A stretch of DNA of 64,000 nucleotides from contig JAGVXG010000009.1 of assembly GCA_018303885.1 (NCBI GenBank), positions 27,611 through 91,610 on the forward strand. Direction: 5' to 3'. The DNA is from Candidatus Pacearchaeota archaeon (GTDB lineage Archaea > Nanobdellota > Nanobdellia > Pacearchaeales > GW2011-AR1). Below are positions 17,775 to 31,063 of this stretch, one piece after another; positions within the stretch are counted from its first letter, which is position 1, and every line of letters begins with the position of its first letter. The translations under genes and the position numbers were made by a program. The notes under the pieces were generated by a model, which did no database searches, was not told the DNA's origin, and worked only from the letters and a program-made list of their open reading frames with translations.

Positions 17775-18614
17775 ATGATTGAAATGATATTTTTGTTTTC
17801 TCTTGCGCTAATTTGGATAGTTTTTGCAGTTGTCCAAGATTTGAGAAAAAGAGAGGTAGCAAACTGGCTTAATTTTTCTCTTATTGTCTTTGCTCTTGGC
17901 TTCAGGTTTTTTTATTCATTATTCTCATTAAATGGCTTTGGGTTTTTTTATCAGGGTCTTCTTGGGCTGCTAATCTTCCTTTTATTGGGAAATTTGCTTT
18001 ACTATAGCAAGGTTTTTGCCGGCGGAGATGCTAAATTAATGATTGCTCTTGGAACTGTTTTGCCTTTTTCTCAAAGTTTCCTTACCAATCTTAAATTTTT
18101 CTCTGTTTTCTTTATTTTGTTTCTTTTTGTTGGTGCTGCATACAGCCTTGCCGGCAGCATGGTTCTTAGTCTAAGGAATTTCCAAAAATTTAAAAAAGAG
18201 TTTTCCAATCAAATAAAGAAAAATAAGAAATTTATTATTCCTGTTCTTCTTTCCGCAATAGTGCTTATGGCTCTCGGATTTTTAGAAATCCTTTTTTTGT
18301 TTATAGGTGTTTTAGTTTTTATTCTTCCTTATCTGTATGTTTATGCTAAAGCAGTCGATGAATCTTGCATGATAAAAAAAGTAAAAACTAGCGAGCTAAC
18401 AGAAGGAGATTGGCTTTACAAAAATGTTCGTGTTGGCCGAAATATCATAAAAGCGTCATGGGATGGGCTTAGAAAAGAAGACATCAGCCAATTAAAGAAA
18501 AAGCATAAATTTGTTTTAATAAGAATGGGTATTCCTTTCTCTCCTGCCTTTTTAATTAGCTTTCTGATTCTGGTTTATCTTTGGAAAACCAATTTGTGGG
18601 GTTTTTTGTTTTAG
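17775..18614 (+). CDS. A24-family class III signal peptidase (prepilin/preflagellin peptidase, PibD/FlaK-like)
   Basis: Polytopic membrane protein carrying both catalytic Asp motifs: VQDLRKREVANW and FAGGDAKLMIALG. Confidence 0.8.
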   Translation: MIEMIFLFSLALIWIVFAVVQDLRKREVANWLNFSLIVFALGFRFFYSLFSLNGFGFFYQGLLGLLIFLLLGNLLYYSKVFAGGDAKLMIALGTVLPFSQSFLTNLKFFSVFFILFLFVGAAYSLAGSMVLSLRNFQKFKKEFSNQIKKNKKFIIPVLLSAIVLMALGFLEILFLFIGVLVFILPYLYVYAKAVDESCMIKKVKTSELTEGDWLYKNVRVGRNIIKASWDGLRKEDISQLKKKHKFVLIRMGIPFSPAFLISFLILVYLWKTNLWGFLF

Positions 18615-18637
18615 GTTAAAAATATTTCTTTTCAAAA

Positions 18638-18973
18638 CTAAACCAATTTAACAAATTCGGATTTAACTTTTTCAAAAGTTTCTTTATTGATTCTTCCTAC
18701 TTTTTTATTAACAATATTTTGACTTATAGTAAAAAGTTTATCAACTTTTATCCTGCTCAGTCTAGGAACTCCACCTTCGACTAAGTTTTTATTATCAAAT
18801 AAAACAGAATGTTTTGAATCCTTTAAATTGGATGTTATACCACAAGTTATCACATCTTCAGAACTCTCATTATCTACATTTTTGGATAATATCAGGACAG
18901 GTCTTTGTTTTATGCTACTCAAATCAGAAAAAGGAAAAGGAACAACAACTATTTCGCCTTGTCTATACATCAT
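18638..18973 (-). CDS. mazF: MazF/PemK-family type II toxin
   Basis: GEIVVVPFPFSDLSSIKQRPVLILS is the PemK/MazF N-terminal signature. The likely start is at 18973 or 18970, overlapping the antitoxin stop (ATGATGTATAG). The ORF track extends to 19015. Confidence 0.75.
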   Translation of the reverse strand: MMYRQGEIVVVPFPFSDLSSIKQRPVLILSKNVDNESSEDVITCGITSNLKDSKHSVLFDNKNLVEGGVPRLSRIKVDKLFTISQNIVNKKVGRINKETFEKVKSEFVKLV

Positions 18974-19196
18974 TCCAAACCTCATCTTCTTTATTATCCC
19001 AAAGTTTCTTAGCAACCTTTTCAGAATGCTTTAATAAATAGCTAAAATCTTCCTTTTTTACTTTTTTTATAACAATCGCATCTTCGTTTTTTGTGATGAA
19101 AAGCTCGTCTCCGCGTTTAATCTTTAAAGAATCCCTTATTCCTACCGGTAAAGAAATTTGCCCTTTATCTGTTACTTTAATTATTTTAGTCTCCAT
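18963..19196 (-). CDS. mazE: AbrB/MazE/SpoVT-family antitoxin
   Basis: 77 aa. The swapped-hairpin motif KVTDKGQISLPVGIRDSLKIKRGDELF sits upstream of, and overlaps, the toxin gene. Confidence 0.75.
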   Translation of the reverse strand: METKIIKVTDKGQISLPVGIRDSLKIKRGDELFITKNEDAIVIKKVKKEDFSYLLKHSEKVAKKLWDNKEDEVWNDV

Positions 19197-19381: not shown

Positions 19382-19813
19382 TCAAGGTGCAGGGGGGGTT
19401 TCGGTAGCACATGTTATCGCAGAACAGATTTCTACTCCATAATTTCTTCCGGTATATTTTCCACCAGAAGCCAATTTTTCACAAGTAGTATCTGCGTCTT
19501 TAATCTTTGGATTTGTTCCATCATTAACTTCTCTTTGAACAGTACAATAATCATACTTTGCTCCAGTTGTACACGCTGTTTCGCAAGCAGTTACTATATT
19601 TTGAACATTATTTGACTTTACAAATGGAAAAATCTTGTTCCATCCAACAGTAAATCCTAATATCAAAATAACAAGAACAACGAGCCCAAGGATAATCAAA
19701 ATAATAGCATTAACACTTAAACCTTGTCCTTTAATGTCTTTAGGTAAAAAATCACCTCTTTTCTTTTGCATATGAAATTGAGGGTTATTTTGTTTAAAAA
19801 TGTTTTTGTTCAT
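19382..19813 (-). CDS. prepilin-like protein with Cys-rich ectodomain (143 aa)
   Basis: Class III signal peptide-like KGQG|LSVNAIILIILGLVVLVILILGF. The C-terminal domain has about 7 Cys. Confidence 0.6.
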   Translation of the reverse strand: MNKNIFKQNNPQFHMQKKRGDFLPKDIKGQGLSVNAIILIILGLVVLVILILGFTVGWNKIFPFVKSNNVQNIVTACETACTTGAKYDYCTVQREVNDGTNPKIKDADTTCEKLASGGKYTGRNYGVEICSAITCATETPPAP

Positions 19814-19818
19814 AGTGT

Positions 19819-20118
19819 TTATGGGATGTTGTATCTGACTCTTATTCCTTCTTGTTCTAATAGAAGATGTTTTCCGAGCCCATCTGATGGCTTAACCTCG
19901 AAGATTTCATTTATTTCCTCTTCGCTAAACTCAAGGCTTTCCTTGTAAAAAGATATTTTCTCCCCTATGACTGCTGCTTTTTCAACCAGTTCAATATCAA
20001 AGCCCTTCTTTGCATCTCTGTCTGAGATATAGAAACTCACAATTGCCAAAATACATATTGCAACAACCCCCATTACTAGAATCGTTACAGGAATGTCTCC
20101 GCGTTTGTTTTTTGTCAT
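19819..20118 (-). CDS. prepilin-like protein (99 aa)
   Basis: MTKNKRG|DIPVTILVMGVVAICILAIVSF. Tightly packed in the operon. Confidence 0.6.
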   Translation of the reverse strand: MTKNKRGDIPVTILVMGVVAICILAIVSFYISDRDAKKGFDIELVEKAAVIGEKISFYKESLEFSEEEINEIFEVKPSDGLGKHLLLEQEGIRVRYNIP

Positions 20119-20119
20119 G

Positions 20120-20680
20120 TTATTTACCGATTAAATTTAGTTCTAAATTTCTTTTGTCATCTAACATAATCTTTTCATCAGCAAAAGGTACTGTATGGTA
20201 ACCTAATTCGGTATTTCTATCTCCGGCGACTCTTTTGCCAAAATAGTTATTTTCAATAGAGTTAAATATACAAAATTGTGGCTCTGGGGCACATGGCTTT
20301 CCATTAGCATTTTCTTCCGTGTTTATAACAAATCCTAACCATATATTGTTGGGATTATTTAAGTAATCTTTTTGAAAAAGTCCTCGGAAAACCTTCAGGG
20401 CAAGGTTTCCATTGAAATAATTAAGATTTTCTTCTTCCTTAAGCTGTTGATAAACTAACTTTCCGCTAGCATCTTTAGTTACTGTATAAGAAAAAAGGGA
20501 TTTTGATGCTAAGGTATCTACTGATTTAAAATAATTAGATTTCAAATCTTTTTCGTTGTGAAAAAAGGCAGACGCCGCAAAAATCGAAACAGCAAGAACA
20601 ACAACTATAACAACAGTTGCAACTAGCCAGGTTATCGTATCACCCGTTTGCGCTTTTTTATTTTTAACAAGTTCCCGCAT
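20120..20680 (-). CDS. prepilin-like protein (186 aa)
   Basis: KKAQTG|DTITWLVATVVIVVVLAVSIFA N-terminus. 1-nt gap to the downstream gene. Confidence 0.6.
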   Translation of the reverse strand: MRELVKNKKAQTGDTITWLVATVVIVVVLAVSIFAASAFFHNEKDLKSNYFKSVDTLASKSLFSYTVTKDASGKLVYQQLKEEENLNYFNGNLALKVFRGLFQKDYLNNPNNIWLGFVINTEENANGKPCAPEPQFCIFNSIENNYFGKRVAGDRNTELGYHTVPFADEKIMLDDKRNLELNLIGK

Positions 20681-21182
20681 TTTTTTCTGTCTTTCTTACA
20701 ATAGAAAGTATATTTACTTGATATTGTGTATTTTTTCTATCAATAACATAAAGGCTTCTTTTTAGACAGAAAGGGAGGCTTTCTCCTTTATCTGCACAAA
20801 AAATTTTTAAATTGGAATTTCCTGCGGATATTTCAGGAATTTTTTTTCCATTGGGAGGATTAAAATCAAGAATTTCTATTTCAACATAATACTGTCCCTG
20901 TTCCTTCCAGCCGCAAGCATCTTCAACTTCAAAATTCAAGTTACATTGTTCAAGAAGGTTTTCATTAAAGCCTTCTATTAAAACTTCTTCTCGTAAATAT
21001 CCTGTTTGAGAAACACAATCTGCAACTCTGTTTGTCAAAGCATTTGCCTCCAATTCTCGTATGTCATATGGCTTTCCATAAAAAGAAAAAACCATGTAAA
21101 CAATTGCAGCAGCCACTATGAAAAGTATCACAAACCAATACACCGAAATTATCTTATCTCCGCCGGTTTTATTCATTGTCAT
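20664..21182 (-). CDS. prepilin-like protein (172 aa)
   Basis: MTMNKTGG|DKIISVYWFVILFIVAAAIVYMVF. Cys-containing ectodomain. Overlaps the next gene by 17 nt. Confidence 0.55.
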   Translation of the reverse strand: MTMNKTGGDKIISVYWFVILFIVAAAIVYMVFSFYGKPYDIRELEANALTNRVADCVSQTGYLREEVLIEGFNENLLEQCNLNFEVEDACGWKEQGQYYVEIEILDFNPPNGKKIPEISAGNSNLKIFCADKGESLPFCLKRSLYVIDRKNTQYQVNILSIVRKTEKNAGTC

Positions 21183-21183
21183 T

Positions 21184-21585
21184 TTATTCTATGAAAAAAT
21201 AAAATTCTTTTTTGTTTTCAGTAAGCTTGGGGGTTGCCTTAACTCCATTAAAAAAACTGTACGAATACCCTCCTTTTTCCCTAAGTTTAACTGTAACAAC
21301 ATTATTCTCAATAGTTACAATTTCACCAACAGGCCAGTTTTCTTTTTCTGCTTTGCTGATGGCATTTTCCATATTAAGATAAATCGTCATTCCTGGTTTC
21401 GCAGAATCTATAACAAGAGCTATTTGTTTTGCATATCTTTCCTCAAGAACAGCAGCGCTTCCCATTTTTAAAAATAAAAATAAAACCAAGGTTGATAAGA
21501 ACACAAGATTAAGAATAATAAAAATAAGGTTTTCCATCAAAATGGTCCCTTTTTTTCCTATATTTTTTGGCTTGGTTAGTTTCAT
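21184..21585 (-). CDS. prepilin-like protein (133 aa)
   Basis: NIGKKG|TILMENLIFIILNLVFLSTLVLFLFL. Confidence 0.55.
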   Translation of the reverse strand: MKLTKPKNIGKKGTILMENLIFIILNLVFLSTLVLFLFLKMGSAAVLEERYAKQIALVIDSAKPGMTIYLNMENAISKAEKENWPVGEIVTIENNVVTVKLREKGGYSYSFFNGVKATPKLTENKKEFYFFIE

Positions 21586-21586
21586 T

Positions 21587-22357
21587 TTATGCCTTTGTTA
21601 TGAACTCTCCTTCATCAAGACGAGAAGAAGTTTCAGAGGTTGGGATTATGTAAACCTTAAAAATAATATCTGAATCAATGGGATTATCATCTATTCCTGT
21701 AATAATAGAGTATTTTTCATTTGTCATAATCTTATCGTTATTAACATTTATTTTAAACTGGGAGTTTACTATCACAAAATTTACATCATTAACCCCATAC
21801 AAATAATTAAGATAACTCTGAGAACTTTGCTTTTGGGTTTTTCTTAGATAATCATAAAATTCGGCGTATGTTATTTCTGGGTATTTTTTCTGGATTTTTT
21901 CATCAAATTCAACCACAGAGCAAATAGCATATTTTATAGTTGAACTTCCAATTTCTCCGTAATTTACTTTTCCCTCGCCAAACATATACCAGCAATCAGC
22001 CATTTCTTTTGCAACGGCTTCTATAATTTCATTTTCACTGTCTTTATTGTTTAGATTTACTTCTACCTTAGATGCAGAAGCCAAGTTTTCACAATCATCT
22101 CCTCCAGAAATACAAAGGTAGTTTGTCCTGCAGTCTAGAGGCCCTCCTGATGTCGCTCTTAAAACAAGATTTCCTCTTAACACAACAGAATTATGGCAGA
22201 TTTCTTTGTTTGACTGCTCTCCGGGATTCAATCTAAAAATAAGGAAGAGTATAATGATAAAACTTACAATAAGCACTATGATTGTTACAAGTTGAGTCGT
22301 TGTTAATTCCCCTTTTTTATTTTCCATTATTTTTACCATGTTTCTACATAACTCCAA
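21587..22357 (-). CDS. prepilin-like protein (about 246-256 aa)
   Basis: MENKKG|ELTTTQLVTIIVLIVSFIIILFLIF. The probable true start is Met11 at 22327. Cys-containing ectodomain. Confidence 0.55.
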   Translation of the reverse strand: MELCRNMVKIMENKKGELTTTQLVTIIVLIVSFIIILFLIFRLNPGEQSNKEICHNSVVLRGNLVLRATSGGPLDCRTNYLCISGGDDCENLASASKVEVNLNNKDSENEIIEAVAKEMADCWYMFGEGKVNYGEIGSSTIKYAICSVVEFDEKIQKKYPEITYAEFYDYLRKTQKQSSQSYLNYLYGVNDVNFVIVNSQFKINVNNDKIMTNEKYSIITGIDDNPIDSDIIFKVYIIPTSETSSRLDEGEFITKA

Positions 22358-22454
22358 GTTTTTTTAAAAGCAAGTAAATTCCTGCTAAAGCTAACCCAAA
22401 AATCACTGCCCAAGTTAAATATTTTATTAATACTTCTATGTTTTCATTTTCCAT
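22347..22454 (-). CDS. possible 35-aa single-TM peptide
   Basis: My translation: MENENIEVLIKYLTWAVIFGLALAGIYLLLKKLGVM. It starts 9 nt after the upstream gene's stop. Too short for certainty. Confidence 0.3.
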
Positions 22455-22463: not shown

Positions 22464-22985
22464 TTATGCTTTTGAAATCATTTTATTTTGATAATCTATT
22501 TTAAGATTCAAAGGCGGTTCTATTGGTATTGGCTGTTGCTGAATGCCGTCTTTTCTGACAGTAAGTTGTTTTGAATTTTCCATGCAAATTCCATTATCAT
22601 CTGAATTTTCCAAAAACTTTTCTCTTACATTTCCCGTAAATGGTAAAGTTGACCATAACTGGCTTCCTAAACTAACATCTTTTACTATACAAACGCAACC
22701 ATCCCACCCAAGATTAGAGCAAGACCTTGGAAGTTTTCCTTCATTTTGATAAGGCCAAGATAAGATAACCCATCCTTTAGGATTGTAAATATCAACACTA
22801 GTTTTTTCAGCATTTATCTCCTGTTCAAGAAAATTCAGGGATTCTTTCGCTAGTTCAAGGTCTTTCGAGTCCTTTCCAGCTTTGTAAAGTGAAAAAAGAA
22901 GAAAAACCAAAAATCCTATAGCAATAACAGCAAGTATCACCTTCAACGTTTCTTCGGCAAGTAAAAAACCTCTTTTTGATTTCAT
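22464..22985 (-). CDS. prepilin-like protein with bacterial-style G|FxLxE N-terminus (173 aa)
   Basis: MKSKRG|FLLAEETLKVILAVIAIGFLVFLLF. Phe at +1 and Glu at +5, as in bacterial type IV pilins. Confidence 0.65.
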   Translation of the reverse strand: MKSKRGFLLAEETLKVILAVIAIGFLVFLLFSLYKAGKDSKDLELAKESLNFLEQEINAEKTSVDIYNPKGWVILSWPYQNEGKLPRSCSNLGWDGCVCIVKDVSLGSQLWSTLPFTGNVREKFLENSDDNGICMENSKQLTVRKDGIQQQPIPIEPPLNLKIDYQNKMISKA

Positions 22986-22987: not shown

Positions 22988-23161
22988 TTATTTTAATAAG
23001 CTTAAAATCAACTCAGGCGCGTCTTTTGGTTTATCAGGAACAAGATTATTAAAAAAGTCTATTAAATCTTCTTTAAAGAAAAAATAAATGCCAAGGACAA
23101 CGACAACAAACACGAGAACTCCGATGATTATTTTAATCAGGTTTTCTATTGTTAGTTCCAT
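22988..23161 (-). CDS. possible 57-aa single-TM protein in the pilus operon
   Basis: My translation: MELTIENLIKIIIGVLVFVVVVLGIYFFFKEDLIDFFNNLVPDKPKDAPELILSLLK. Its stop lies 2 nt before the next ATG. Confidence 0.4.
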   Translation of the reverse strand: MELTIENLIKIIIGVLVFVVVVLGIYFFFKEDLIDFFNNLVPDKPKDAPELILSLLK

Positions 23162-23194: not shown

Positions 23195-23347
23195 TCATCT
23201 AAACAAGTCTTTTATTTTGTCTATTAAAATTACTCCTTTCCCTTGTAAAATAAAAACCGTAATCATTAAAATCACAAGAACCGCAACCGCTATCAAAATC
23301 CATGGAAGATACTCAGAAATAATACCCCTTACGTCTCTTTTCTTCAT
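23195..23347 (-). CDS. possible 50-aa prepilin-like peptide
   Basis: My translation: MKKRDVRG|IISEYLPWILIAVAVLVILMITVFILQGKGVILIDKIKDLFR. Confidence 0.45.
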   Translation of the reverse strand: MKKRDVRGIISEYLPWILIAVAVLVILMITVFILQGKGVILIDKIKDLFR

Positions 23348-23386: not shown

Positions 23387-25564
23387 TCAAGCCAGATTTC
23401 CAAGCACAATACTTGTTAAAATAAACAATGCCAATGTAGCTGCTAAAGAAGTTATAAAGTAAAGCATTATACTTTTTGTAAGGTTTTTCCCTGTTTTATT
23501 TGTTCTTTCAAGCTTATCTTCTCCAGAGTCTATTGCAACTAAAGCGCGTGTTAAAATGAAGACTATCTGTACAAGATAAATGCCAATTATAATCTGAAGG
23601 AAGTAAGGAGGAATCATCTTAGCAACCTCGAATATATCCGAGATTGTTCCAATATTTCCGAAGCCGGCAGCAGCCTCGCCTTGTAGCTCTGGTAAATCAA
23701 GTTTAGTTAAAATAGCAGTTATCATCGCTGCCAAACCAACAACAACGCCTGAAAGCAGCGGCGCTAAGAACGACATATTTGATTTCATGTCAGAAACAAC
23801 TTCTGCAAGCATGTCTCTCAACCTAGAATTTATCTTGTGAATATTTCTCACATATTCAGAAATGCTCATCATGCTTATGGCCGCAACTTGAAGTCCTTTT
23901 TTTGCCGACTCAACAAGAATCCTCATGCTCGTGGCAATCAAATCAGATGGATAATAAATTATGGCGCCTTTTCTGGAATCGAAAATAGCTTTTTCAACGC
24001 TCATTCCCATTTGCCTTATATTGTAATTAACTCTCATGAAAAAATCTTCTGACATCAATCCTTTAGACGACTCTGCGATTTTGCCAAAGGCTATTTCTGG
24101 AGGGACTTCATTGCCAATTCTGTTTCCCAACTGAAACAGCGAATTATTAAATTCCATTTCAAGCTGTCTTGTTCTTTCTCTTTCGACAATCAGCTCTTTT
24201 GTTCGTTCTCTAAAGGATATAGAAAAAAACAGGGCAATTCCAAGAGGAATAAACATGCTCAATATCAAAGCCCCAATTCCAAATGGCCCTGAAACGCCAG
24301 AAGCATCAGAAGTAAAACCAAAGAATTTTTCATCTCCAAAAAACCCAAATCCTAGTTGGGAAAAGGTGTAGTCTTTCTGTAAGCCGATTAATTCTGGAAA
24401 AGACGTATACTGAAAAATAAACGGCAAAAGTCCGAGTATGAAAAAAGGCAAAGTGATTAAAAACGCATTAATGTAAGGCGCTTTACTTTTGTATTTATAA
24501 TAAAGAGGGTTTTTTTCCAGCAAAGATGTTTCTCCATAACCCCCTGGCCTTAAAAAAATTATCTTATCTGTTAAATAAAAGACAAAAAACGGAATTACCA
24601 AATTAAAGAAAATAAAAACATGAACCCATGTTAACAAACCTCCTAACATTGCTGTTGCCAAAGGAAGTAATGCAAGCCCAAGTGTTGGTAATACAACTCC
24701 CAACATGTAAACATTAGTCAACGGACTTTTAACATCATGCGTAAATTTCAACATCTTGTCATAAACCCCATCAAGAACTACTTTCAATGATTTTTCCAAA
24801 GTCAGAATGCGCCTTGAGTTGTCTGGCTCATACAAGCTGCTTTCTATAAGATGGAAGGCTTCTATAAACTCAATAGAATAATCTCTCCATGCCTCTAAAT
24901 AATTATCGAGGCTTTCTTTAATCGTTGAAAACTTTCCTATTTGAACATTGTAAAAAACCTTCTTGAAATCCAATGCCAAAGGATAACTCAAATGTTCTGA
25001 GGCAAACGCGACTGCCCTTTCCAAATTTGACGTATGCCGCATGTAAACAACGATATACAAAATAGCAGGAACCATTTGGCTGGATGCTTTCAGCCGCCAT
25101 TTATTCGCAAGCCTCGCCGGATAATCTTTCATAAAATAAAAAATGAATAAAGAAAGAATAATACAAAGAAAGAAAAATAAAAATGGAAACGAACTTAGGC
25201 TCCCGTTAATTAAAACAACTGCCAAAGAAATAAGCAACCCAATGAAAAAAATACTGAGAAACGATACAACGCTTAGAGTCAGGGGCTGCCATGGTTCTAA
25301 ATCTAAGTGCGCAATATCGAGATGCTTCTTAATTTTTGCCTCATCAGCTGCAGAGACTTTCAGTCTTATGAGATTTCCTAAACTTTTGCACCATCGTTCA
25401 TATCTTGAAATTTCCGGCGCCATCTCTTCTTTAAATTTAATGTAAGATTGGCTATAATCAACTTTAATATTGCCTCTAACGTTAAACGTAGCCATGCGAG
25501 CTTCTATCTTGCTTCCATATTCATTAAGAATATCATCAACCTGTTTTTTTGGCGGTGCTGGCAT
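23387..25564 (-). CDS. polytopic membrane platform protein (FlaJ/TadC/PilC-like, 725 aa)
   Basis: Many TM helices arranged in two clusters separated by cytoplasmic helical domains. It lies immediately downstream of the secretion ATPase, which is the usual position of the platform gene in archaeal type IV pilus loci. The family assignment rests on context. Confidence 0.55.
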   Translation of the reverse strand: MPAPPKKQVDDILNEYGSKIEARMATFNVRGNIKVDYSQSYIKFKEEMAPEISRYERWCKSLGNLIRLKVSAADEAKIKKHLDIAHLDLEPWQPLTLSVVSFLSIFFIGLLISLAVVLINGSLSSFPFLFFFLCIILSLFIFYFMKDYPARLANKWRLKASSQMVPAILYIVVYMRHTSNLERAVAFASEHLSYPLALDFKKVFYNVQIGKFSTIKESLDNYLEAWRDYSIEFIEAFHLIESSLYEPDNSRRILTLEKSLKVVLDGVYDKMLKFTHDVKSPLTNVYMLGVVLPTLGLALLPLATAMLGGLLTWVHVFIFFNLVIPFFVFYLTDKIIFLRPGGYGETSLLEKNPLYYKYKSKAPYINAFLITLPFFILGLLPFIFQYTSFPELIGLQKDYTFSQLGFGFFGDEKFFGFTSDASGVSGPFGIGALILSMFIPLGIALFFSISFRERTKELIVERERTRQLEMEFNNSLFQLGNRIGNEVPPEIAFGKIAESSKGLMSEDFFMRVNYNIRQMGMSVEKAIFDSRKGAIIYYPSDLIATSMRILVESAKKGLQVAAISMMSISEYVRNIHKINSRLRDMLAEVVSDMKSNMSFLAPLLSGVVVGLAAMITAILTKLDLPELQGEAAAGFGNIGTISDIFEVAKMIPPYFLQIIIGIYLVQIVFILTRALVAIDSGEDKLERTNKTGKNLTKSIMLYFITSLAATLALFILTSIVLGNLA

Positions 25565-25754: not shown

Positions 25755-28100
25755 TTACATCTTCCTCTCTTTAATCTCATCATTCAACCACTTCAGCCAA
25801 AGAGGAAAGACTTTTTCGCTCAATGGCAAACCAGCTTCTTGGCGGACTTCATCTGAAATTCTATGAAATGCATGATTGGATTTCGAGCTAAATTCAGCCT
25901 CGAGAATCTTGTAATTGCCCAGTCTTTTTGCAGTATTCACGAGCTCTTCTTTTATCTTTGCTCTTAAAAGAATATTATCCCAGACAGCGTCCCAGTTTCC
26001 AGCCCAGCCCTTCACATTGGAAGCAACATCTTTGATTACTTCTGAGTCTCCGTTAATTAAGTCTTCTGTGGGCTCCAGCTCGTCAGTTTCAACATTATAC
26101 TTAAATAAATCCACGAAGCCTTTCTCTTCTAAAGGATCTTCTTTCCAATGCTTTCTTACCTCGGAAATTTGGACAACTCTTTTCCATGAATGCAGTCCAT
26201 CAGGACTTTTTATTGGATTAGCCACAATAATTATATCTGTTGCCTTGAAGCTCGTTGCAGGAACTTTGAGATCATTTACAACCCTGTCAAAAACTCCATA
26301 AGGCGAAGCGCCATGAATTGTTCCTGCAACAACATTTGCTAACGCGCCAACACGCATTGCTTCATAAAGCGCTTGCGCCTCAACGCTCCTGACTTCTCCA
26401 ATAATCAAACTCGAGTCTCCCAAACGCAAACTTGTTCTTATTCCGTCGTCGGCAGAAACTTCTGTAGATTTTAAAAGCGCACTGCGCACTTTCATTCTTA
26501 AAATATCATACTTTAATTTTCTTAAAGATTCTACGGGTAACTCGGCTGTGTCTTCTATCACTATAATCCTGTACTTAGGAATTATTTCAAGCATTAGACT
26601 TCCCAAAAGGCTCGTCTTTCCAGAGCTTCTTGTTCCCGCTACGAGCAATGTTCGAGAACCGTCAATCAAAAAACTTAAAACTCCTGCTGCAAGGGGATTT
26701 ATCATCTTATTCTCGACGAACAAAGGCAAAGTCCACGGTTCTTCTCTATGTCTTCTTATAGCATAAGATATTCCATCAGGGCTCAAAGGACGCTGAACAA
26801 TGGCGATTCTTGCCCTGACTCGGCCAAGCTTGGACGAGTCTCCCATTTCAAGTTGTGTATCGAGTATTGGATTTGCTTCGTCAAGAGGCCTTCCTGAAAT
26901 CAATCTGAATTTCGCTGCCCATGAATCAACATCTTCCTGGCTAGGAATTATATTTGTTAAACATTCATCATAAGTTTCATGGCGCACAAAAATAGGAATC
27001 ATTGAAACCGGCGCATTCAATGAAATGTCCTGAAGTCTCTTGTCCTGCAAGAGAACTTCTATTAGCCCAAAGCCAATAGTATGCCTTACGAGAATCGTGG
27101 CAAGCTTATTCAAGTCCTGATAAGAAATATTTACTCCTTTACTCTGCGCAAGATCCTGCAATAGGTCTTTTGAAATATTAAAAAAAACCTGTCTCGTCCT
27201 TTCTGTGTCTGTAAACTCTTCTGCTTTGGGCTGATGCTCTATCAGAACACTCCGCGCAAGATTTAGAAGCATGCCTTGATCTTCATCAAGAATATTTTCA
27301 GGAGGAACAATATGATAAATAAATTTTGGCTCGTCTTTCTTCTTTAGAATTGTCACAAGTGAAACATCGTATTCTTCGCTGGATATTTCATATTGGTCTG
27401 TAATTTCTGCATCCTCTGGCAAATCAGAAATAAGCCTCGTAAAGGTGAAATTAGGGATAACATCTGACCTAAATAGTTTTTCATACACTTCTCTGCTGCC
27501 TTTTCTATAATCTTTCATGTAAGGCGCTGCTTCTCTAAGGAGGCTAGTCTTTTCCATGAGCATCAAGGTCTTTTCAAGCAAGTTTATGTATCCAGACTGG
27601 TCTGTTTTATAAGAAACGGGCATTTTTTCAAGGGCTATTCTTCCTTGTATGATGATTTTTTTTAATTCAAAATGCGCAGCCAAAGGATCTCTTTTAAGAA
27701 AAGAAAGAAAAGAAAAAACTTCATTGTATCTTCCTGGGAAGAACCCATCATGCCCCATAGTTAATTTGTCTCTTGAGAGAATCCTTTCTTGTTGAACAAG
27801 ATAGACATAAAGCTGGGCGATCTCTAAAAGAAAATTTGTTTCCCTGAAATCATAGTTATAATTTTTTTGCTGAACAAAAATAATCCTGGAAACATTAGGA
27901 TTTTCAGTCAGGGCATCGATTGTTTTTTCCATAACATCTGGTGATTCAGAAAGACTCGGGACAAACGGAGCCCCAAGATAATTTATGTAAAGAATGTCTT
28001 CACCGCCTTCACGCTTAACTTCGTAAGAATACAACGGCTTCGTTCCTGGCGTTTCCATCGGCTCTTTTCCCATCAATTCTTTTTCTTCTGCTAACACCAT
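25755..28100 (-). CDS. type II/IV secretion-family ATPase (FlaI/PilB/VirB11-like) with long N-terminal extension (781 aa)
   Basis: Walker A LLVAGTRSSGKTSLLGSL. Asp-box/Walker B RIIVIEDTAELP and LIIGEVRSVEAQALYEAMRVG. His-box GTIHGASPYGVFDRV. About 430 aa precede the ATPase core. Confidence 0.85.
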   Translation of the reverse strand: MVLAEEKELMGKEPMETPGTKPLYSYEVKREGGEDILYINYLGAPFVPSLSESPDVMEKTIDALTENPNVSRIIFVQQKNYNYDFRETNFLLEIAQLYVYLVQQERILSRDKLTMGHDGFFPGRYNEVFSFLSFLKRDPLAAHFELKKIIIQGRIALEKMPVSYKTDQSGYINLLEKTLMLMEKTSLLREAAPYMKDYRKGSREVYEKLFRSDVIPNFTFTRLISDLPEDAEITDQYEISSEEYDVSLVTILKKKDEPKFIYHIVPPENILDEDQGMLLNLARSVLIEHQPKAEEFTDTERTRQVFFNISKDLLQDLAQSKGVNISYQDLNKLATILVRHTIGFGLIEVLLQDKRLQDISLNAPVSMIPIFVRHETYDECLTNIIPSQEDVDSWAAKFRLISGRPLDEANPILDTQLEMGDSSKLGRVRARIAIVQRPLSPDGISYAIRRHREEPWTLPLFVENKMINPLAAGVLSFLIDGSRTLLVAGTRSSGKTSLLGSLMLEIIPKYRIIVIEDTAELPVESLRKLKYDILRMKVRSALLKSTEVSADDGIRTSLRLGDSSLIIGEVRSVEAQALYEAMRVGALANVVAGTIHGASPYGVFDRVVNDLKVPATSFKATDIIIVANPIKSPDGLHSWKRVVQISEVRKHWKEDPLEEKGFVDLFKYNVETDELEPTEDLINGDSEVIKDVASNVKGWAGNWDAVWDNILLRAKIKEELVNTAKRLGNYKILEAEFSSKSNHAFHRISDEVRQEAGLPLSEKVFPLWLKWLNDEIKERKM

Positions 28101-28189
28101 ATAACTAAATAAAAAATCAGGTTAAAATATTTTGTGTTTGTGAGTTATTTTGAAATAGAAATCCACGTTTGAATAATTACGCTCTCTTA

Positions 28190-31063
28190 TTAGGTCAATC
28201 CTCTTTCAGAAATAGTTGAATCGCCACTATTTTCTCCTGTATCACTTCCCGTGTCTCCCAACTCAATAGGAACTTCTTTGCAGAAAGGCAAAAACTTAAA
28301 CCATTTACAAAAAACAGATGTCGTCTTTTTTACACAAGCGCCGTCAGAGCAGCCGTTTGGGCATACCACTCTTTCTGCAGCTTCAAAAGTATCTTTATAA
28401 CAATACAGTTCAACTAAATCTGATCCTTTTGTAACAACAAGGCCTGAGGAGTCAGCACAATAGTCGGTAGTAGAAAATTCATTTCCATAGATATCAAAAC
28501 CATTTAATTTTCCTTTAATATCATAATTCTGACCGCCATCAGAGTCAGTACATGTTGGTGTTTTAGGTGTTTTTATAATGCCACAAATAACTTTTATTGT
28601 TGCAGATGTATCTGATGCAGAAACAAGTTCAATAGTATAAAGTTGTTGGCTATAGGAGTTATATAATAATGACGGATTATCACTGGTTAAAGTAAATAAT
28701 CCTCCTTCAAGTTTGATATTTGCTAATAATTTTAAATTATTTTCATCGGCTTCGGCTAAAGAAATTTCCAAGCCCATAATGTTTTTTGTTTCCAATTCTT
28801 GAAGTTCTACATAATTAAGGTCTCCTTCTTTACAAGCTGGTTTTGGTGTTGAATCTGTTGCACATGCACCATCAGAGCAGCCGTTTGGGCATTCATACTC
28901 TTCTTTAGCAAGATTATTAGTTGTATCACAAGAAAATTCAAATAATGTATTAACTTTGTCTGAAGTTCCGGACCAGTCTTTATGACAAATATCCATTCCA
29001 ACATTAGTGCCAGATGAACTAATAACTGTCGTAATTCCCCCTATATTGTAATTTATTCCACCATCAGAATCCGTGCATTTTGGAGTTTCAATCTGACATA
29101 TACTCGAACAACCATCACCGTTTACAGTATTACCGTCGTCGCATGTTTCTCCACTATCAATAATTCCGTTTCCGCAAACAGGTCCGCCACCCCCAGGGCA
29201 ATCTTGAAAACAACTAGCTGGAGTTTCGCCAGCTTCACAGATACTATTTCCACAAATAGGTCCGATAGCCTGACTTACCCTTAACAATCCACTTTTAGCT
29301 GTTACGTCCTTGTTTTTTGTTGATTGTGCAATGAAATAATATTCTGGATCGCCGGCAAGTCCATCATTTTGCCATTCTGCTACCCAGCTTCCTGTTGCAG
29401 TATTTCCTGAAAATACAACATTGGCTGGATTTACATTTACAGCGTCGTCAGAGCTCGTAGTATCGTCCTCCCAAACCCCAAAAGAAACACTTTGTCCATT
29501 ACAATTATTTCCCTGGACACTTAAGTTTACTGTTTGCCCTTCTGTTGTCTGCGTCGTACTCCACGATGCAGATGTGAAAACACAAGTTGGTTTAGTTATA
29601 TCCTTTATGCAAGCGCCATCAGAACAACCATTTGAACAATAAAAAGCCTCCTGATTCTGAGTATATTCTGTTTGGCTGTTGCAGACTCCCTCAATTAAGA
29701 AATATTTATCAGTACAGTAATCATCAAACTCTTCAACAGTACCATAAGGATTATTCGTGTATGTTAAAGTTCCTTTCACATCGTAATTCAATCCGTCATC
29801 ACTGTCAGTACATGTTGGTTCTGGTTTATCTGGTGTTAGTGGCCTTTGTGTAGTACCCCCAATTGTTTGGCAAGGTGTGTTTGGTTTTGCAAGAAGTGCG
29901 TCAAAATACTCCCAATGTTCTGTAAGAATCCAATAATCATTGTAGTCTATAAGACCTGCCATTATGAATCTACCTCCTTGATCCCAACATACTTTTACAT
30001 CAAGATTTGGATTAGATTTTTTTATCCATTCTGCATCTTGTTGCGCCCACGCATCATTTGTATGGCTTTTTAGTCTAGGTTGTGTAAATGAAAGTGTATT
30101 TGTTATTGGAGCAGTATTTACATCGGGAAAATAATCAAATGGCTCGCTAACTTGTGATGCCATTGCAAAAACCCCAAAATCAGGAATTGTTACTAAAACA
30201 TAAGTTCCTCCAGTTAATGTTTCAGGTGATCTTGTGCCCCAAACATATATTGCGTGATTATCTATTCTATACTGTGAAGTTGCAGTGCTTTTAACTTGAA
30301 CTTCTGTTGTACATTTGCCATCTAAACACCTATTATCTTTGAAAGTGATATAATTAGGAGTTACTGAGAGTTCTCTCCCAGCAGTAGGAAGAAGATCTGC
30401 TGAACTTGTTGTCAAGGAAGCTTTGTTATTCAGAGCCTCAAGTACTTCTGGCGGCCAATTTATTTTTGGAATGTTGGAAGTCCCAGCAACTAAGGATGCC
30501 GGCGCCACTGAAGAAATTTGGCCAGAGGGGGAGATGTATCTAACTATTGCTACTTTGTTTGAAGAGCTCGTTGCATCAGTAGTTTTTGGTTGGATATTTG
30601 TAGCTGGTGTATTATTTACTGGTTTTGGACAATCAACTAAACAAGACGTAGAGCTTTCACCGCTGTTGCAAATTCCATCGCCACAATATGGTCCTTGAAC
30701 ACTAACTGTTTGACATTGTGAAGAACAATAATTACAACTGCTTCCATAATTAGCACCACAAACAATACCATTTCGGCTTCCAGAATCACATTGTTCTCCT
30801 GATTCAACAATTCCATTACCGCAAACTGCCGCAGTTGGTTTAGCAACACATCTTGAAGTATCAAACCTACAGCTAGTGCAACTTAAAGTTCCGCTTGCAA
30901 ATCCAAAATCAACACAAGAAGTTATATCTCCTAATGGATCTTCTCCATCGCATAATTCTCCGGCTTCAAGAATTCCGTTGCCGCAAATTCCCGCAGTTAC
31001 TTTTCCCGTAAATCCTTGCGGTCCGAATAAATCCGAAAACCAGCTAGCGGAAATAAACGTCAA
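28190..31063 (-). CDS. large secreted modular cysteine-rich protein (957 aa), candidate adhesin
   Basis: Five CGNG(I/L)xExGExCD-type repeats. Three modules of about 70 aa each, CTDSDGG.NY...YC...C.NGCSDGAC. No TM anchor. The only in-frame start as assembled is TTG at 31063, so the start is uncertain. Confidence 0.7.
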   Translation of the reverse strand: MTFISASWFSDLFGPQGFTGKVTAGICGNGILEAGELCDGEDPLGDITSCVDFGFASGTLSCTSCRFDTSRCVAKPTAAVCGNGIVESGEQCDSGSRNGIVCGANYGSSCNYCSSQCQTVSVQGPYCGDGICNSGESSTSCLVDCPKPVNNTPATNIQPKTTDATSSSNKVAIVRYISPSGQISSVAPASLVAGTSNIPKINWPPEVLEALNNKASLTTSSADLLPTAGRELSVTPNYITFKDNRCLDGKCTTEVQVKSTATSQYRIDNHAIYVWGTRSPETLTGGTYVLVTIPDFGVFAMASQVSEPFDYFPDVNTAPITNTLSFTQPRLKSHTNDAWAQQDAEWIKKSNPNLDVKVCWDQGGRFIMAGLIDYNDYWILTEHWEYFDALLAKPNTPCQTIGGTTQRPLTPDKPEPTCTDSDDGLNYDVKGTLTYTNNPYGTVEEFDDYCTDKYFLIEGVCNSQTEYTQNQEAFYCSNGCSDGACIKDITKPTCVFTSASWSTTQTTEGQTVNLSVQGNNCNGQSVSFGVWEDDTTSSDDAVNVNPANVVFSGNTATGSWVAEWQNDGLAGDPEYYFIAQSTKNKDVTAKSGLLRVSQAIGPICGNSICEAGETPASCFQDCPGGGGPVCGNGIIDSGETCDDGNTVNGDGCSSICQIETPKCTDSDGGINYNIGGITTVISSSGTNVGMDICHKDWSGTSDKVNTLFEFSCDTTNNLAKEEYECPNGCSDGACATDSTPKPACKEGDLNYVELQELETKNIMGLEISLAEADENNLKLLANIKLEGGLFTLTSDNPSLLYNSYSQQLYTIELVSASDTSATIKVICGIIKTPKTPTCTDSDGGQNYDIKGKLNGFDIYGNEFSTTDYCADSSGLVVTKGSDLVELYCYKDTFEAAERVVCPNGCSDGACVKKTTSVFCKWFKFLPFCKEVPIELGDTGSDTGENSGDSTISERGLT

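What the first reader, a model, noticed from the sequence alone, without database searches (positions are those of the whole stretch)
17775..31063. Complete but atypical type IV pilus-like locus: peptidase, nine or more prepilin-like genes, platform, 781-aa ATPase and a 957-aa Cys-rich protein
Within 13 kb, almost all on the minus strand, I see five component types.
- An A24 class III signal peptidase.
- Nine ORFs whose N-termini fit the [KR]G|x + about 20 hydrophobic residues rule. One of them has a bacterial-style G|FLLAE with Glu+5.
- Three additional mini-ORFs of 35-57 aa, each with a single TM.
- A 725-aa polytopic platform-like protein.
- A secretion ATPase whose core is preceded by about 430 aa of unassigned sequence.

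The operon is then continued by a giant modular Cys-rich secreted protein. Most pilin-like ectodomains contain several Cys, and none looks like an archaellin. No archaellum accessory genes (FlaF/G/H/C/D/E-like) are evident.

In a genome that looks reduced and symbiont-like, this is the best candidate for a dedicated host-attachment or uptake apparatus. The subunit set does not match the described Aap, Ups or Tad-like systems.
Basis: partly seen in the sequence, partly recalled or inferred. Interest (0 to 1): 0.8.

Follow-up and report, generated by a model that had tools for sequence, protein, structure and literature searches.

The report
DPANN archaeal type IV pilus locus
This is a real and complete type IV pilus-like assembly gene cluster of a tiny symbiotic (DPANN, Pacearchaeota-type) archaeon; the cluster type is conserved in hundreds of related genomes and was already noted in the literature, but relatives that fuse bacterial-cell-wall-cutting enzymes to its pilins suggest it is used to contact bacteria.

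Summary
The core observation holds. Window 17775-28100 encodes an A24 prepilin peptidase, a FlaI/GspE2/CpaF-family ATPase, a TadC/FlaJ-type platform (shown only through distant relatives), eight proteins with conserved class III signal-like N-termini and two conserved single-pass mini-proteins.

- There are 8 prepilin-like genes, not "nine or more" plus three.
- Two ORFs inside the interval are a MazE/MazF pair found in none of 80 related loci.
- About 230 aa of the ATPase N-terminus are unassigned, not 430. They form a confidently folded, lineage-specific domain.
- The 957-aa Cys-rich protein is a lineage-variable insert with a doubtful start codon, not a conserved component.

The gene order is almost the same in about 35 long Pacearchaeota/Woesearchaeota loci: coiled-coil pair | ATPase, platform, m57b, m57a, p173, m36, p256, p133, p172, p186, p99, p143, peptidase. 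This locus type has been reported before (Makarova 2019; Hamm 2024) but not characterised.

New here:
- A 42-aa Flp/EpdE-like mini-pilin is the candidate major subunit.
- In 7 related loci, p99- or p172-type pilins carry SLT or Amidase_2 murein-hydrolase domains.
- N-glycosylation sequons are depleted in the secreted components.

Best reading: a Tad/Epd-like filament for contact with other cells, probably bacteria.

The parts
17775..18614 (+). Class III (prepilin) signal peptidase, A24 family, 279 aa. It is inverted relative to the consensus orientation in relatives.
   Evidence: PF01478 E=2.4e-12; weak archaeal PepC C-terminal domain E=0.044. FlaK model E=7.6e-10, far below its cutoff. Asp22 and the FAGGDA motif are >=95% conserved in 33 orthologs. 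In most relatives it sits directly after p143 on the same strand.
19382..19813 (-). p143: prepilin-like protein. The family N-terminus is KRG|QGLSTNAIILIILG. It has 6 conserved Cys. The likely start is Met15 (19771).
   Evidence: Orthologs in 37 loci, median 45% identity. Conserved N-terminus. Conserved Cys.
19819..20118 (-). p99: prepilin-like protein (KRG|DIPVTILV). The same family carries a C-terminal SLT lytic transglycosylase in L046, L067 and L069.
20120..20680 (-). p186: prepilin-like protein (KKA|QxGxTxTW).
   Evidence: Orthologs in 32-34 loci.
20664..21182 (-). p172: prepilin-like protein. The family has KKG|DKxISVYWF, but the window copy has TGG|DK. It has 4 conserved Cys. The family carries inserted Amidase_2 (L032, L076, L077) or SLT (L024) domains in some relatives.
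21184..21585 (-). p133: prepilin-like protein with Glu at +5 (KKG|TILME). No Cys.
   Evidence: Orthologs in 46-48 loci, median 55% identity.
21587..22339 (-). p256: the largest prepilin-like protein (KKG|ELTTxQLV), 250 aa from the ATG at 22339. It has 8 conserved Cys and an ectodomain of unmatched fold.
   Evidence: Orthologs in 50 loci. A 100%-identical 250-aa protein, P0383, is in ENA. AF2 model has pLDDT 91 and pTM 0.83, with a TM helix at 10-32, a helix at 40-53 and an alpha/beta domain. No PDB or BFVD match.
22344..22454 (-). m36: conserved 33-36-aa single-pass mini-protein without a [KR]G leader. Related to m57a.
   Evidence: Orthologs in 44 loci. hhalign against m57a gives 93% probability.
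22464..22985 (-). p173: prepilin-like protein with a bacterial-style KRG|FLLAEE (Glu at +5). It has 6 conserved Cys.
   Evidence: Orthologs in 45-48 loci.
22988..23161 (-). m57a: conserved ~54-aa single-pass mini-protein. It starts directly with a mature-pilin-like N-terminus (M|ELTIxQLIKII).
   Evidence: Orthologs in 27-31 loci.
23195..23347 (-). m57b: Flp/EpdE-like mini-prepilin (MKKRDVRG|IISEYLPW..., mature 42 aa), the first gene after the platform. Candidate major filament subunit.
   Evidence: Orthologs in 50-51 loci, median 59% identity. Mini-ORFs directly after the platform also occur in relatives at 26-31% platform identity: L082 with an MKG| leader, L083 without one. The candidate major-subunit role is inference.
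23387..25564 (-). Polytopic membrane platform, TadC/FlaJ (T2SSF) superfamily, 725 aa, with two cytoplasmic-domain-plus-TM repeats.
   Evidence: The window protein itself has no direct Pfam, NCBIfam or PDB hit. 4 of 23 close and 15 of 42 distant relatives hit PF00482, best E=3.2e-10. The family profile picks the GspF/EpsF cytoplasmic domain 2vmb/3c1q, E=0.18. N-half against C-half hhalign gives E=2.5e-4. JGI names three homologs TadB.
25755..28100 (-). Secretion/assembly ATPase of the archaeal GspE2/FlaI/CpaF superfamily, with a lineage-specific ~230-aa N-terminal domain. The likely start is Met15 (28058).
   Evidence: PF00437 E=2.2e-13. FlaI model E=3.2e-39, TadA E=2e-34, BasE E=4.4e-17, all below their cutoffs. 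PDB 2oap E=1.1e-30 and CpaF E=9.2e-23. Catalytic motifs are conserved. The N-extension model has pLDDT 83 and no PDB match. The N-extension is conserved in distant relatives L081 and L083.
28190..31063 (-). Variable accessory gene: a 957-aa protein with 52 Cys, made of modules (3 x CGNG...GExCD repeats, 3 x CTDSDGGxNY...CSDGAC modules). It occupies an insertion hotspot and is not a conserved component.
   Evidence: DUF4215 E=1.4e-5. myxo_disulf_rpt E=8.6e-13. Module map. Weak matches in only 12 of 80 loci. Analogous secreted proteins sit in the same slot in L006, L009, L048, L059 and L083. Sequons are depleted, 2 observed against 11.8 expected.
31978..32334 (+). x118: conserved soluble coiled-coil protein, normally divergent from and adjacent to the ATPase. 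Likely one of the 'CCP' proteins of Hamm et al. 2024.
   Evidence: Orthologs in 72 of 80 loci, median 65% identity. An x118-like gene is next to the ATPase in L083 and L085. No significant PDB hit.
32547..33449 (+). x300: conserved soluble protein (small N-terminal helical domain, low-complexity linker, coiled coil). Partner of x118.
   Evidence: Orthologs in 71 of 80 loci. An x300-like gene is present in L083. No significant PDB hit.

Best explanation
The locus encodes a Tad/Epd-like archaeal type IV filament machine that is a conserved core feature of Pacearchaeota/Woesearchaeota-type DPANN archaea.

Proposed mechanism:
1. The A24 peptidase removes short basic leaders from eight prepilins at [KR][GA]|.
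2. A hexameric GspE2/FlaI/CpaF-type ATPase docks on the cytoplasmic domains of the TadC/FlaJ-type platform and drives the subunits out of the membrane into a filament. The extra N-terminal domain of the ATPase is likely regulatory or a docking site, possibly for the adjacent coiled-coil proteins x118 and x300.
3. I infer that the 42-aa Flp/EpdE-like m57b is the major subunit.
4. I infer that the seven larger pilin-like proteins, mostly disulfide-rich, form a fixed minor-pilin priming or tip complex that carries the binding or enzymatic function.

The most likely role is physical contact with another cell (attachment and perhaps wall breaching), with bacteria as likely partners in at least some lineages.

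Shown: component identities, conservation, synteny, and the catalytic motifs. The sequon depletion is a measured signature from which extracytoplasmic location is inferred. Inferred: which pilin is major, the filament architecture, and the biological target.
For: Components:
- Peptidase.
- ATPase.
- Platform assigned to T2SSF through relatives.
- Eight families with conserved class III-type N-termini that share only the first 30-40 residues, as type IV pilins do.

Conservation:
- Gene order is fixed in about 35 long loci, and 529 matched stretches in the species-representative genome collection encode a relative of the ATPase.
- ATPase identity is 71-82% (median 74%). Platform identity is 51-79% (median 70%) in the 80 loci and up to 92% among database homologs. 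Neighbouring HIT is 43% and RPA 64%.
- The architecture persists in relatives whose platform is only 26-31% identical.

Location and target:
- N-x-S/T sequons are depleted only in the pilins (0 observed, 9.0 expected, P about 0.0005) and in cys957. The cytoplasmic and membrane controls show no depletion.
- Relatives fuse catalytically intact SLT or Amidase_2 murein hydrolases to p99- or p172-type pilins, acquired independently.

Literature:
- Small major pilins have precedent. Mature EpdE is about 6.4 kDa (PMC4390842).
- Conserved DPANN T4P loci with coiled-coil proteins are described in PMC11291902.
- Extracellular murein transglycosylases and possible bacterial hosts in these lineages are discussed in PMC8204110.
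Against: - No pilin-like protein matches a curated pilin family above threshold.
- The confident p256 model matches no solved pilin or any other structure, so pilin identity rests on N-termini and gene context.
- FlaFind and PilFind were not available. The cleavage sites are predicted from a pattern.
- The window's own p99 and p172 lack hydrolase domains, and no murein hydrolase was found among the window ORFs scanned. The bacterial-target inference therefore comes from relatives.
- m57b deviates by one residue from the Flp motif (G|IIS[DE]Y against G|XXXXEY), and its role as major pilin is untested.
- No filament has been observed for any Pacearchaeote.
- In the window the peptidase gene is inverted and separated from the cluster by MazEF.
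Confidence: 0.8

Rival explanations
1. A bindosome- or T2SS-like short pseudopilus. The machine would not build long pili. Instead it would assemble a short membrane-anchored scaffold that displays or pushes out enzymes and binding proteins for scavenging, such as the hydrolase-bearing pilins and Cys-rich secreted proteins. This is analogous to the Sulfolobus Bas bindosome or the bacterial T2SS.
For: - The ATPase also matches the bindosome ATPase BasE model over residues 230-702, E=4.4e-17.
- There are seven conserved, stoichiometrically fixed pilin-like genes, which resembles T2SS pseudopilin sets.
- Some pilins carry enzyme domains.
- Variable secreted proteins are encoded next to the ATPase.
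Against: - The BasE match is weaker than the matches to FlaI, TadA or GspE2.
- No substrate-binding-protein domains occur in the pilins.
- The Flp-like mini-pilin fits a polymerising major subunit.
- The data cannot separate a short filament from a long one.
Confidence: 0.15
2. A DNA-uptake (competence-type) pilus that scavenges nucleic acids for an organism lacking nucleotide biosynthesis.
For: - The genome type is reduced, and literature proposes nucleotide scavenging for Pacearchaeota (PMC8204110 abstract).
- T4P-dependent DNA uptake is established in bacteria.
- Two NT5C nucleotidases are encoded in the window.
Against: - No ComEC, DprA, ComEA or Ced-like gene occurs in the locus or among the window ORFs scanned.
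- Murein-hydrolase fusions point to cell walls rather than DNA.
Confidence: 0.04
3. A divergent archaellum, that is, a rotary swimming filament.
For: The best NCBIfam match of the ATPase is the FlaI model, E=3.2e-39. There is also a weak FlaC_arch hit on x300, E=0.046.
Against: - The FlaI score of 135 bits is far below the 550-bit cutoff.
- No archaellin, FlaH, FlaF, FlaG or FlaX/CDE was detected in the window or conserved in 80 loci.
- A. fulgidus GspE2 matches better than FlaI in PDB.
Confidence: 0.01

Closest known systems
Conserved type IV pilus-like loci of cluster 2 DPANN archaea (Hamm et al. 2024, PMC11291902; DPANN 'dark-matter pilin' loci in Makarova et al. 2019, PMC6393860)
   Same: - Same lineages (Pacearchaeota and Woesearchaeota are named explicitly).
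- A CpaF-like ATPase plus a TadC-like platform with adjacent coiled-coil proteins.
- Unannotatable small ORFs with signal peptides, predicted to be pilins.
- The window's x118/x300 pair, ATPase and platform fit this description.
   Different: In the text I could read, those papers do not list the fixed ten-gene small-protein module, the ATPase N-terminal domain, the mini-pilin, the hydrolase fusions or the sequon depletion. I could not align the window proteins to their CCP sequences, so identity of x118/x300 with their CCPs is inferred rather than tested.
Bacterial Tad/Flp pilus (CpaF/TadA, TadB/TadC, Flp, TadE/TadF, TadV)
   Same: - The ATPase matches CpaF structures (E=9.2e-23) and the TadA model (E=2e-34).
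- The platform belongs to the T2SSF/TadB-TadC superfamily.
- There is a very small major-pilin candidate with an acidic-Tyr motif just after the cleavage site.
- Several pseudopilin-like proteins are present.
- A few orthologs weakly hit the Flp1_like and TadF models.
   Different: - All scores are below family cutoffs.
- One fused 725-aa platform replaces separate TadB and TadC.
- The Flp motif is offset by one residue.
- No secretin or RcpA, TadZ, TadD or TadG is present.
- The ATPase has an extra ~230-aa N-domain.
- The peptidase is the archaeal FlaK/PibD-like type.
Methanococcus maripaludis Epd pili (EppA, EpdA-E, EpdJ/K/L)
   Same: An archaeal T4P with a dedicated A24 peptidase, one very short major pilin (mature EpdE is about 6.4 kDa; PMC4390842) and several essential minor pilins.
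   Different: - The Epd pilins are N-glycosylated, whereas this set is depleted of sequons.
- No sequence-family match to characterised archaeal pilin families was found.
- From memory, the Epd major pilin gene lies outside the pilus locus. Here the candidate lies directly after the platform.
Halobacterial subclade 4F T4P systems with a coiled-coil protein (Makarova et al. 2016, PMC4858521)
   Same: That paper reports an intracellular coiled-coil component (arCOG07564). [quoted passage not shown] This matches the situation here, with coiled-coil partners and unrecognisable pilins.
   Different: I did not run a phylogeny to place this ATPase in clade 4F. x118 and x300 were not compared with arCOG07564.
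Type IV pili of episymbiotic Saccharibacteria (CPR) (PMC9894109, PMC11623550)
   Same: An ultrasmall, genome-reduced episymbiont that uses T4P to find and bind host cells. This is a functional analogy for the proposed role.
   Different: That is a bacterial T4aP machinery (PilB/C/T, PilA) with no homologous pilin set. The function there is shown experimentally, whereas here it is only inferred.

Membership tests
Type IV filament (T4F) superfamily assembly system | A GspE/PilB/FlaI/TadA-family hexameric ATPase with Walker A, Asp box, Walker B and His box | tested here: met
   PF00437 E=2.2e-13. PDB 2oap E=1.1e-30 and CpaF E=9.2e-23. The motifs AGTRSSGKTS, IEDxxELP, GDSxLIxGEVRS and AGTIHG are >=95% conserved in 81 sequences.
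Type IV filament (T4F) superfamily assembly system | A polytopic platform protein of the T2SSF (GspF/PilC/TadBC/FlaJ) family | tested here: met
   Met by transitivity only. The window protein has no direct hit. 15 of 42 relatives, each matching the window protein at E<=1e-58, hit PF00482, best E=3.2e-10. There is a weak profile hit to the EpsF cytoplasmic domain, E=0.18, and an internal duplication, E=2.5e-4.
Type IV filament (T4F) superfamily assembly system | An A24 aspartic prepilin peptidase with two catalytic Asp | tested here: met
   PF01478 E=2.4e-12. Asp22 and the GGDA Asp are conserved.
Type IV filament (T4F) superfamily assembly system | Subunits with class III signal peptides: a short basic leader, G/A at -1, then a hydrophobic helix of about 20 aa | tested here: met
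   Eight families show the conserved motif across 34-51 orthologs each. This is a pattern-based test. FlaFind and PilFind were not available, and cleavage was not shown.
Type IV filament (T4F) superfamily assembly system | Pilin fold: a long N-terminal alpha-helix packed on a beta-sheet head domain resembling known pilins | tested here: inconclusive
   The p256 model (pLDDT 91) has an N-terminal TM helix, a second helix and an alpha/beta domain, but Foldseek finds no pilin or any other match. The other pilins were not modelled.
Bacterial Tad/Flp pilus | A TadA/CpaF equivalog ATPase | tested here: not met
   TIGR03819 scores 119 bits against a 373-bit cutoff. It is related but not an equivalog.
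Bacterial Tad/Flp pilus | An Flp pilin with the G|XXXXEY motif | tested here: not met
   m57b has G|IIS[DE]Y, so the acidic-Tyr pair sits at +4/+5 rather than +5/+6. No Flp_Fap Pfam hit was found.
Bacterial Tad/Flp pilus | The outer-membrane and accessory set (RcpA secretin, TadZ, TadD, TadG) | tested here: not met
   None was detected in the window or in the conserved locus. None would be expected in an archaeon.
Archaellum | A FlaI equivalog plus FlaH, FlaF/G, archaellins (PF01917) and FlaJ | tested here: not met
   The FlaI model scores 135 bits against a 550-bit cutoff. No archaellin, FlaH, FlaF or FlaG was found in the window or among 140 small-protein orthologs.
Sulfolobus bindosome (Bas) system | A BasE ATPase and class III signal sugar-binding proteins | tested here: not met
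   BasE scores 62 bits against a 1000-bit cutoff. No solute-binding domains occur in the pilin-like proteins.
Cluster 2 DPANN T4P-like loci with coiled-coil proteins (Hamm et al. 2024) | A CpaF-like ATPase and TadC-like platform next to coiled-coil protein genes, in Pacearchaeota, Woesearchaeota, Nanoarchaeota and related lineages | tested here: met
   Related loci come from MAGs labelled Pacearchaeota, Woesearchaeota or Nanoarchaeota. The x118/x300 coiled-coil pair is adjacent in 71-72 of 80 loci and in the distant L083. Sequence identity with the published CCPs was not testable with the text held.
MazEF type II toxin-antitoxin (ORFs 18638-19196, inside the reported interval) | A PemK/MazF toxin with an overlapping upstream AbrB/MazE antitoxin | tested here: met
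   PF02452 E=2.9e-16 and PF04014 E=1.1e-10. The genes overlap by 53 nt. They are absent from all 80 related loci, so they are an insertion and not part of the pilus system.

The most novel reading that the evidence does not exclude
The conserved Pacearchaeota/Woesearchaeota machine may be a cross-domain contact organelle. In this reading, an archaeal Flp-like mini-pilin filament carries a fixed minor-pilin complex that can be armed, by modular domain insertion, with murein amidase or lytic transglycosylase modules. The filament would then bind and locally breach bacterial cell walls. That would give these uncultured DPANN archaea bacterial hosts or prey, and would name the genes that mediate the interaction. 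The lineage-specific ATPase N-domain and the coiled-coil pair would be its control module, and the slot next to the ATPase would hold exchangeable adhesins such as the 957-aa Cys-rich protein.
Probability: 0.3. Interest if true: 0.85.

Novelty: new member of a known kind. Interest (0 to 1): 0.5.

Why it matters
No Pacearchaeote or Woesearchaeote has been cultivated, their hosts are unknown, and one influential survey stated that T4P components are missing from DPANN genomes.

This analysis shows that a complete, very strongly conserved T4P-like machine is a core feature of these organisms, and it defines the full subunit list. It also shows that relatives attach murein hydrolases to two of its pilins. 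This links two previously separate observations: DPANN T4P-like loci on one hand, and DPANN murein transglycosylases with possible bacterial hosts on the other. The result is a set of concrete, testable candidates for the host-interaction apparatus.

For the window itself the finding is an instance of an already reported locus type, so its standalone novelty is moderate.

Tried and rejected
- Direct assignment of the platform failed. The window protein alone against Pfam, NCBIfam and PDB gave nothing, and a close-family profile against PDB gave only noise. Distant relatives from the exhaustive search were needed.
- The ATPase N-extension gave a confident AF2 model but no PDB analogue, best E=0.64. 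Its function is unassigned.
- The p256 ectodomain model had no match in PDB or BFVD.
- Curated pilin models returned nothing usable. Pfam on 140 orthologs and NCBIfam on the 10 window proteins gave no hits above threshold.
- The x118 and x300 profiles against PDB gave only chance coiled-coil hits.
- Rfam found only two tRNAs in the window, so there are no RNA elements in the locus.
- I searched for a proper start codon for cys957. No in-frame ATG, GTG or TTG lies upstream of the signal-peptide core, and a frame-2 ATG runs into a stop.
- I rejected the archaellum reading (no accessory genes) and treating MazEF as pilus components.
- I considered the Cys-rich protein as a conserved tip adhesin and rejected it as a conserved part. 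It may still be a lineage-specific accessory.
- The supplements of Hamm et al. held as text did not contain the Pacearchaeota locus tables.

Full report
**Organism and setting**

The window is from an archaeon. It has RadA with an intein, PolD DP1 and an intein-containing DP2, archaeal RecJ, Cdc6 and RPA. GC content is about 34%. The closest relatives of its genes are MAGs labelled Pacearchaeota, Woesearchaeota or Nanoarchaeota, which are DPANN lineages. The rest of the window that I scanned is housekeeping genes, with no second pilus locus, no archaellum genes and no murein hydrolase.

**Checking the observation**

- **Peptidase.** The 279-aa protein on the plus strand is an A24 peptidase (PF01478, E=2.4e-12). 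Asp22 and the FAGGDA aspartate are conserved in 33 orthologs.
- **ATPase.** The 781-aa protein is a secretion ATPase (PF00437, E=2.2e-13). It is most similar to A. fulgidus GspE2 (2oap, E=1.1e-30), then CpaF (E=9.2e-23) and FlaI (E=4.4e-15). It scores far below the equivalog cutoffs of FlaI, TadA and BasE. Walker A, Asp box, Walker B and His box are all conserved.
- **MazEF.** Two ORFs inside the reported interval, 18638-19015 and 18963-19196, are a MazF/MazE toxin-antitoxin pair. They occur in none of 80 related loci.

**Small proteins**

I fetched 80 related loci with the ATPase and found orthologs of every small ORF. Eight families keep a short basic leader ending in [KR][GA], followed by a hydrophobic helix:

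| Family | Conserved N-terminus |
|---|---|
| p143 | KRG\|QGLSTNAIILI |
| p99 | KRG\|DIPVTILV |
| p186 | KKA\|QxGETxTW |
| p172 | KKG\|DKxISVYWF (the window copy has TGG\|) |
| p133 | KKG\|xILxEN (Glu at +5) |
| p256 | KKG\|ELTTxQLV |
| p173 | KRG\|FLLAEE (Glu at +5) |
| m57b | KxG\|IIS[DE]YLPW |

m36 and m57a are conserved single-pass mini-proteins without such a leader. They are related to each other (hhalign 93%). m57a begins directly with a mature-pilin-like sequence.

The families resemble each other only over the first 30-40 residues, as type IV pilins do. A strict class III pattern found five hits inside the cluster and one elsewhere (a Sec-type signal) among 236 ORFs. The count is therefore eight prepilin-like genes plus two minis, not "nine or more" plus three. 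None hits a curated pilin, archaellin or class III family above threshold.

**Platform**

The 725-aa protein has no direct hit in Pfam, NCBIfam or PDB. An exhaustive search found 1034 relatives at 50% clustering.

- Of 42 diverse full-length relatives (23-66% identical to the window protein), 15 hit PF00482 T2SSF on their own, best E=3.2e-10. Among close relatives, 4 of 23 do so.
- The family profile's only biologically meaningful PDB hit is the GspF/EpsF cytoplasmic domain. It is weak (E=0.18) and aligns to the second cytoplasmic domain.
- The N and C halves align to each other (E=2.5e-4), which is the duplicated architecture of platform proteins.

**ATPase N-terminus**

GspE2 aligns from window residue 248 and the BasE model from 230. 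So about 230 aa, not 430, lack an assignment. This region is found only in the same archaeal family. It is conserved in relatives whose platform is only 26-31% identical. It folds confidently (pLDDT 83, above 90 for most of residues 30-210) into a small alpha/beta module plus a helical bundle, and has no PDB analogue.

**Synteny**

In about 35 long loci the order is almost invariant: x300(-), x118(-) | ATPase(+), variable gap, platform, m57b, m57a, p173, m36, p256, p133, p172, p186, p99, p143, peptidase(+), HIT(-), RPA(+).

- ATPase identity is 71-82% (median 74%). Platform identity is 51-79% (median 70%) in the 80 loci and up to 92% among database homologs. The neighbouring RPA is 64% and HIT 43%.
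- In the window the peptidase is inverted, and MazEF is inserted beside it.
- x118 and x300 are soluble coiled-coil proteins with no significant structural relatives. They accompany the ATPase in 71-72 of 80 loci and in the distant locus L083.
- A paralogous "ATPase + platform only" version exists in L085 and L086.

**The 957-aa protein**

It is built from three CGNG...GExCD repeats (DUF4215 / myxo disulfide repeat) and three CTDSDGGxNY...CSDGAC modules, with 52 Cys.

- Together with the 210-aa nucleotidyltransferase-like gene, it sits between x118 and the ATPase. In most relatives those two genes are less than 200 bp apart.
- Only 12 of 80 loci give weak matches, at varying positions.
- The two gaps flanking the ATPase are insertion hotspots. 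They hold TA-like pairs, a flippase-like membrane protein and, in some loci, other secreted proteins, several of them Cys-rich (L006, L054, L059, L048, L009). L083 has a PKD-domain protein in the same slot.
- Relatives begin with a Sec signal peptide followed by SAGWFSDFFG. The window copy keeps IILLSLTFISASWFSDLFG, but no canonical start codon lies upstream in frame. An (AAT)7 microsatellite lies at 31087-31107.

It is best described as a lineage-variable accessory, possibly damaged at its 5' end.

**Additional evidence bearing on function**

1. m57b is the first gene after the platform and gives a mature protein of 42 aa. Mini-ORFs also follow the platform in relatives at 26-31% platform identity, with an MKG| leader in L082 and none in L083. 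Very small major pilins are known: Flp, and EpdE at about 6.4 kDa (PMC4390842). I infer that m57b is the major subunit.
2. In related loci the p99-type pilin carries a C-terminal SLT domain in L046, L067 and L069 (E=1.7e-13 to 8e-15), with intact MMQ-ES, GLMQ and YNGWG motifs. The p172-type pilin carries an inserted Amidase_2 in L032, L076 and L077 (E=2.5e-17 to 7e-24), with a sub-threshold partial match in L056, or an SLT in L024 (E=2e-4, at the Pfam cutoff). These are independent acquisitions in two pilin families. These archaea have no murein of their own (established knowledge), so the filament components must meet bacterial walls.
3. N-x-S/T sequons are absent from the eight mature pilins (0 observed, 9.0 expected, P about 0.0005) and depleted in the 957-aa protein (2 against 11.8). 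ATPase, platform, peptidase, RPA, HIT, x118 and x300 show no depletion. The orthologs are about 2.4-fold depleted (162 against 393). This is a compartment-specific signature of extracytoplasmic exposure. It contrasts with the heavily N-glycosylated Epd pilins.
4. The p256 ectodomain model (pLDDT 91) has no structural match, so the head domains are lineage-specific.

**Literature**

- Makarova et al. 2016 found nanoarchaeal ATPases of a coiled-coil-associated clade whose pilins could not be identified.
- Makarova et al. 2019 predicted that unannotatable ORFs in DPANN T4P loci are pilins.
- Hamm et al. 2024 reported two conserved T4P-like loci with CpaF, TadC and coiled-coil proteins across cluster 2 DPANN, including Pacearchaeota and Woesearchaeota.
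- He et al. 2020 stated that T4P components are missing in DPANN.
- Castelle et al. 2021 noted large extracellular murein transglycosylases in Pacearchaeota and Woesearchaeota and raised the possibility of bacterial hosts, without mentioning pili.
- I found no paper in the library that describes pilin-murein hydrolase fusions in archaea.

**Verdict**

This is a real, complete type IV filament locus. It is a member of a locus family that has been reported but not characterised, so I class it as a new member of a known kind.

The most likely mechanism is Tad/Epd-like assembly of a mini-pilin filament with a fixed minor-pilin complex, used for contact with other cells, probably bacteria in at least some lineages. 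My confidence is about 0.8 that it is a T4F assembly system that builds an extracellular filament or pseudopilus. Confidence in the specific biological target is lower.

The main rival is a short bindosome- or T2SS-like display/secretion pseudopilus (0.15). DNA uptake (0.04) and an archaellum (0.01) are unlikely.

Noticed in passing
L046:18784-19584, L067:15626-16459, L069:18485-19300 (p99-type); L032:18081-19301, L076:17354-18607, L077:17270-18505, L056:8159-8983, L024:18984-20087 (p172-type): In related loci, orthologs of two of the window's pilin-like genes carry murein hydrolase domains. The p99 type has a C-terminal SLT with intact ES/GLMQ/YNGWG motifs. The p172 type has an Amidase_2 or SLT inserted within the ectodomain; the L056 Amidase_2 match is partial and sub-threshold, and the L024 SLT match is at the Pfam cutoff. 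The window's own copies lack these domains. I found no description of this in the searchable literature.
   Followed up: partly
window 19382-23347 (eight mature pilin-like proteins) and 28190-31063: N-x-S/T glycosylation sequons are absent from all eight mature pilins (0 observed, 9.0 expected, P about 0.0005) and depleted in the 957-aa protein (2 against 11.8). Cytoplasmic and membrane proteins of the window show none of this depletion. The pilin orthologs in 80 loci are about 2.4-fold depleted.
   Followed up: partly
window 18638-19196 (-) and 17775-18614 (+): A MazE/MazF toxin-antitoxin pair is inserted between p143 and the peptidase. The peptidase gene is inverted relative to its orientation in most relatives, which points to a local rearrangement specific to this genome.
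   Followed up: yes
window 31064-31130; (AAT)7 at 31087-31107: The 957-aa ORF starts at a TTG inside what relatives show to be a Sec signal peptide (...IILLSLTFISA|SWFSDLFG). No canonical in-frame start lies upstream, and a trinucleotide microsatellite sits there. The cause could be a damaged 5' end, a non-canonical start or an assembly problem.
   Followed up: partly
Gaps x118-ATPase and ATPase-platform in L001-L080 (window equivalents 28101-31977 and 25565-25754): Both gaps flanking the ATPase gene are insertion hotspots, ranging from 15 bp to about 4.9 kb. They hold HTH plus HEPN-like pairs, a ~335-aa flippase-like membrane protein, secreted proteins (several Cys-rich) and others. The window's 210-aa DUF2204 nucleotidyltransferase-like gene (31290-31922) is one such insert and is absent from all 80 loci.
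   Followed up: partly
window 12366-14852 (-), 48777-53507 (-); L083:5021-9367: Inteins interrupt RadA and the PolD large subunit in the window. In the distant relative L083 the pilus ATPase itself carries an intein with a LAGLIDADG domain, giving a 1448-aa product.
   Followed up: no
window 7883-9556 (-) and 44812-46641 (-): Two further predicted surface proteins lie outside the locus. One is a 557-aa protein with a PGF-pre-PGF domain (E=6.7e-26). The other is a 609-aa protein with a Sec-type signal peptide and a weak DUF5667 hit.
   Followed up: no
L085:6473-12229, L086:537-6293, L081:2-4148: A paralogous or alternative locus type exists in more distant relatives. It has the long ATPase plus the platform, with an x118-like coiled-coil gene in L085 and L086, but no downstream pilin genes. 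This is reminiscent of the second DPANN locus described by Hamm et al. 2024.
   Followed up: partly
L040:14417-15382, L074:15229-16203: The p173-type pilin is about twice its normal length (~322 aa) in two relatives, and the extra part has no Pfam match.
   Followed up: no
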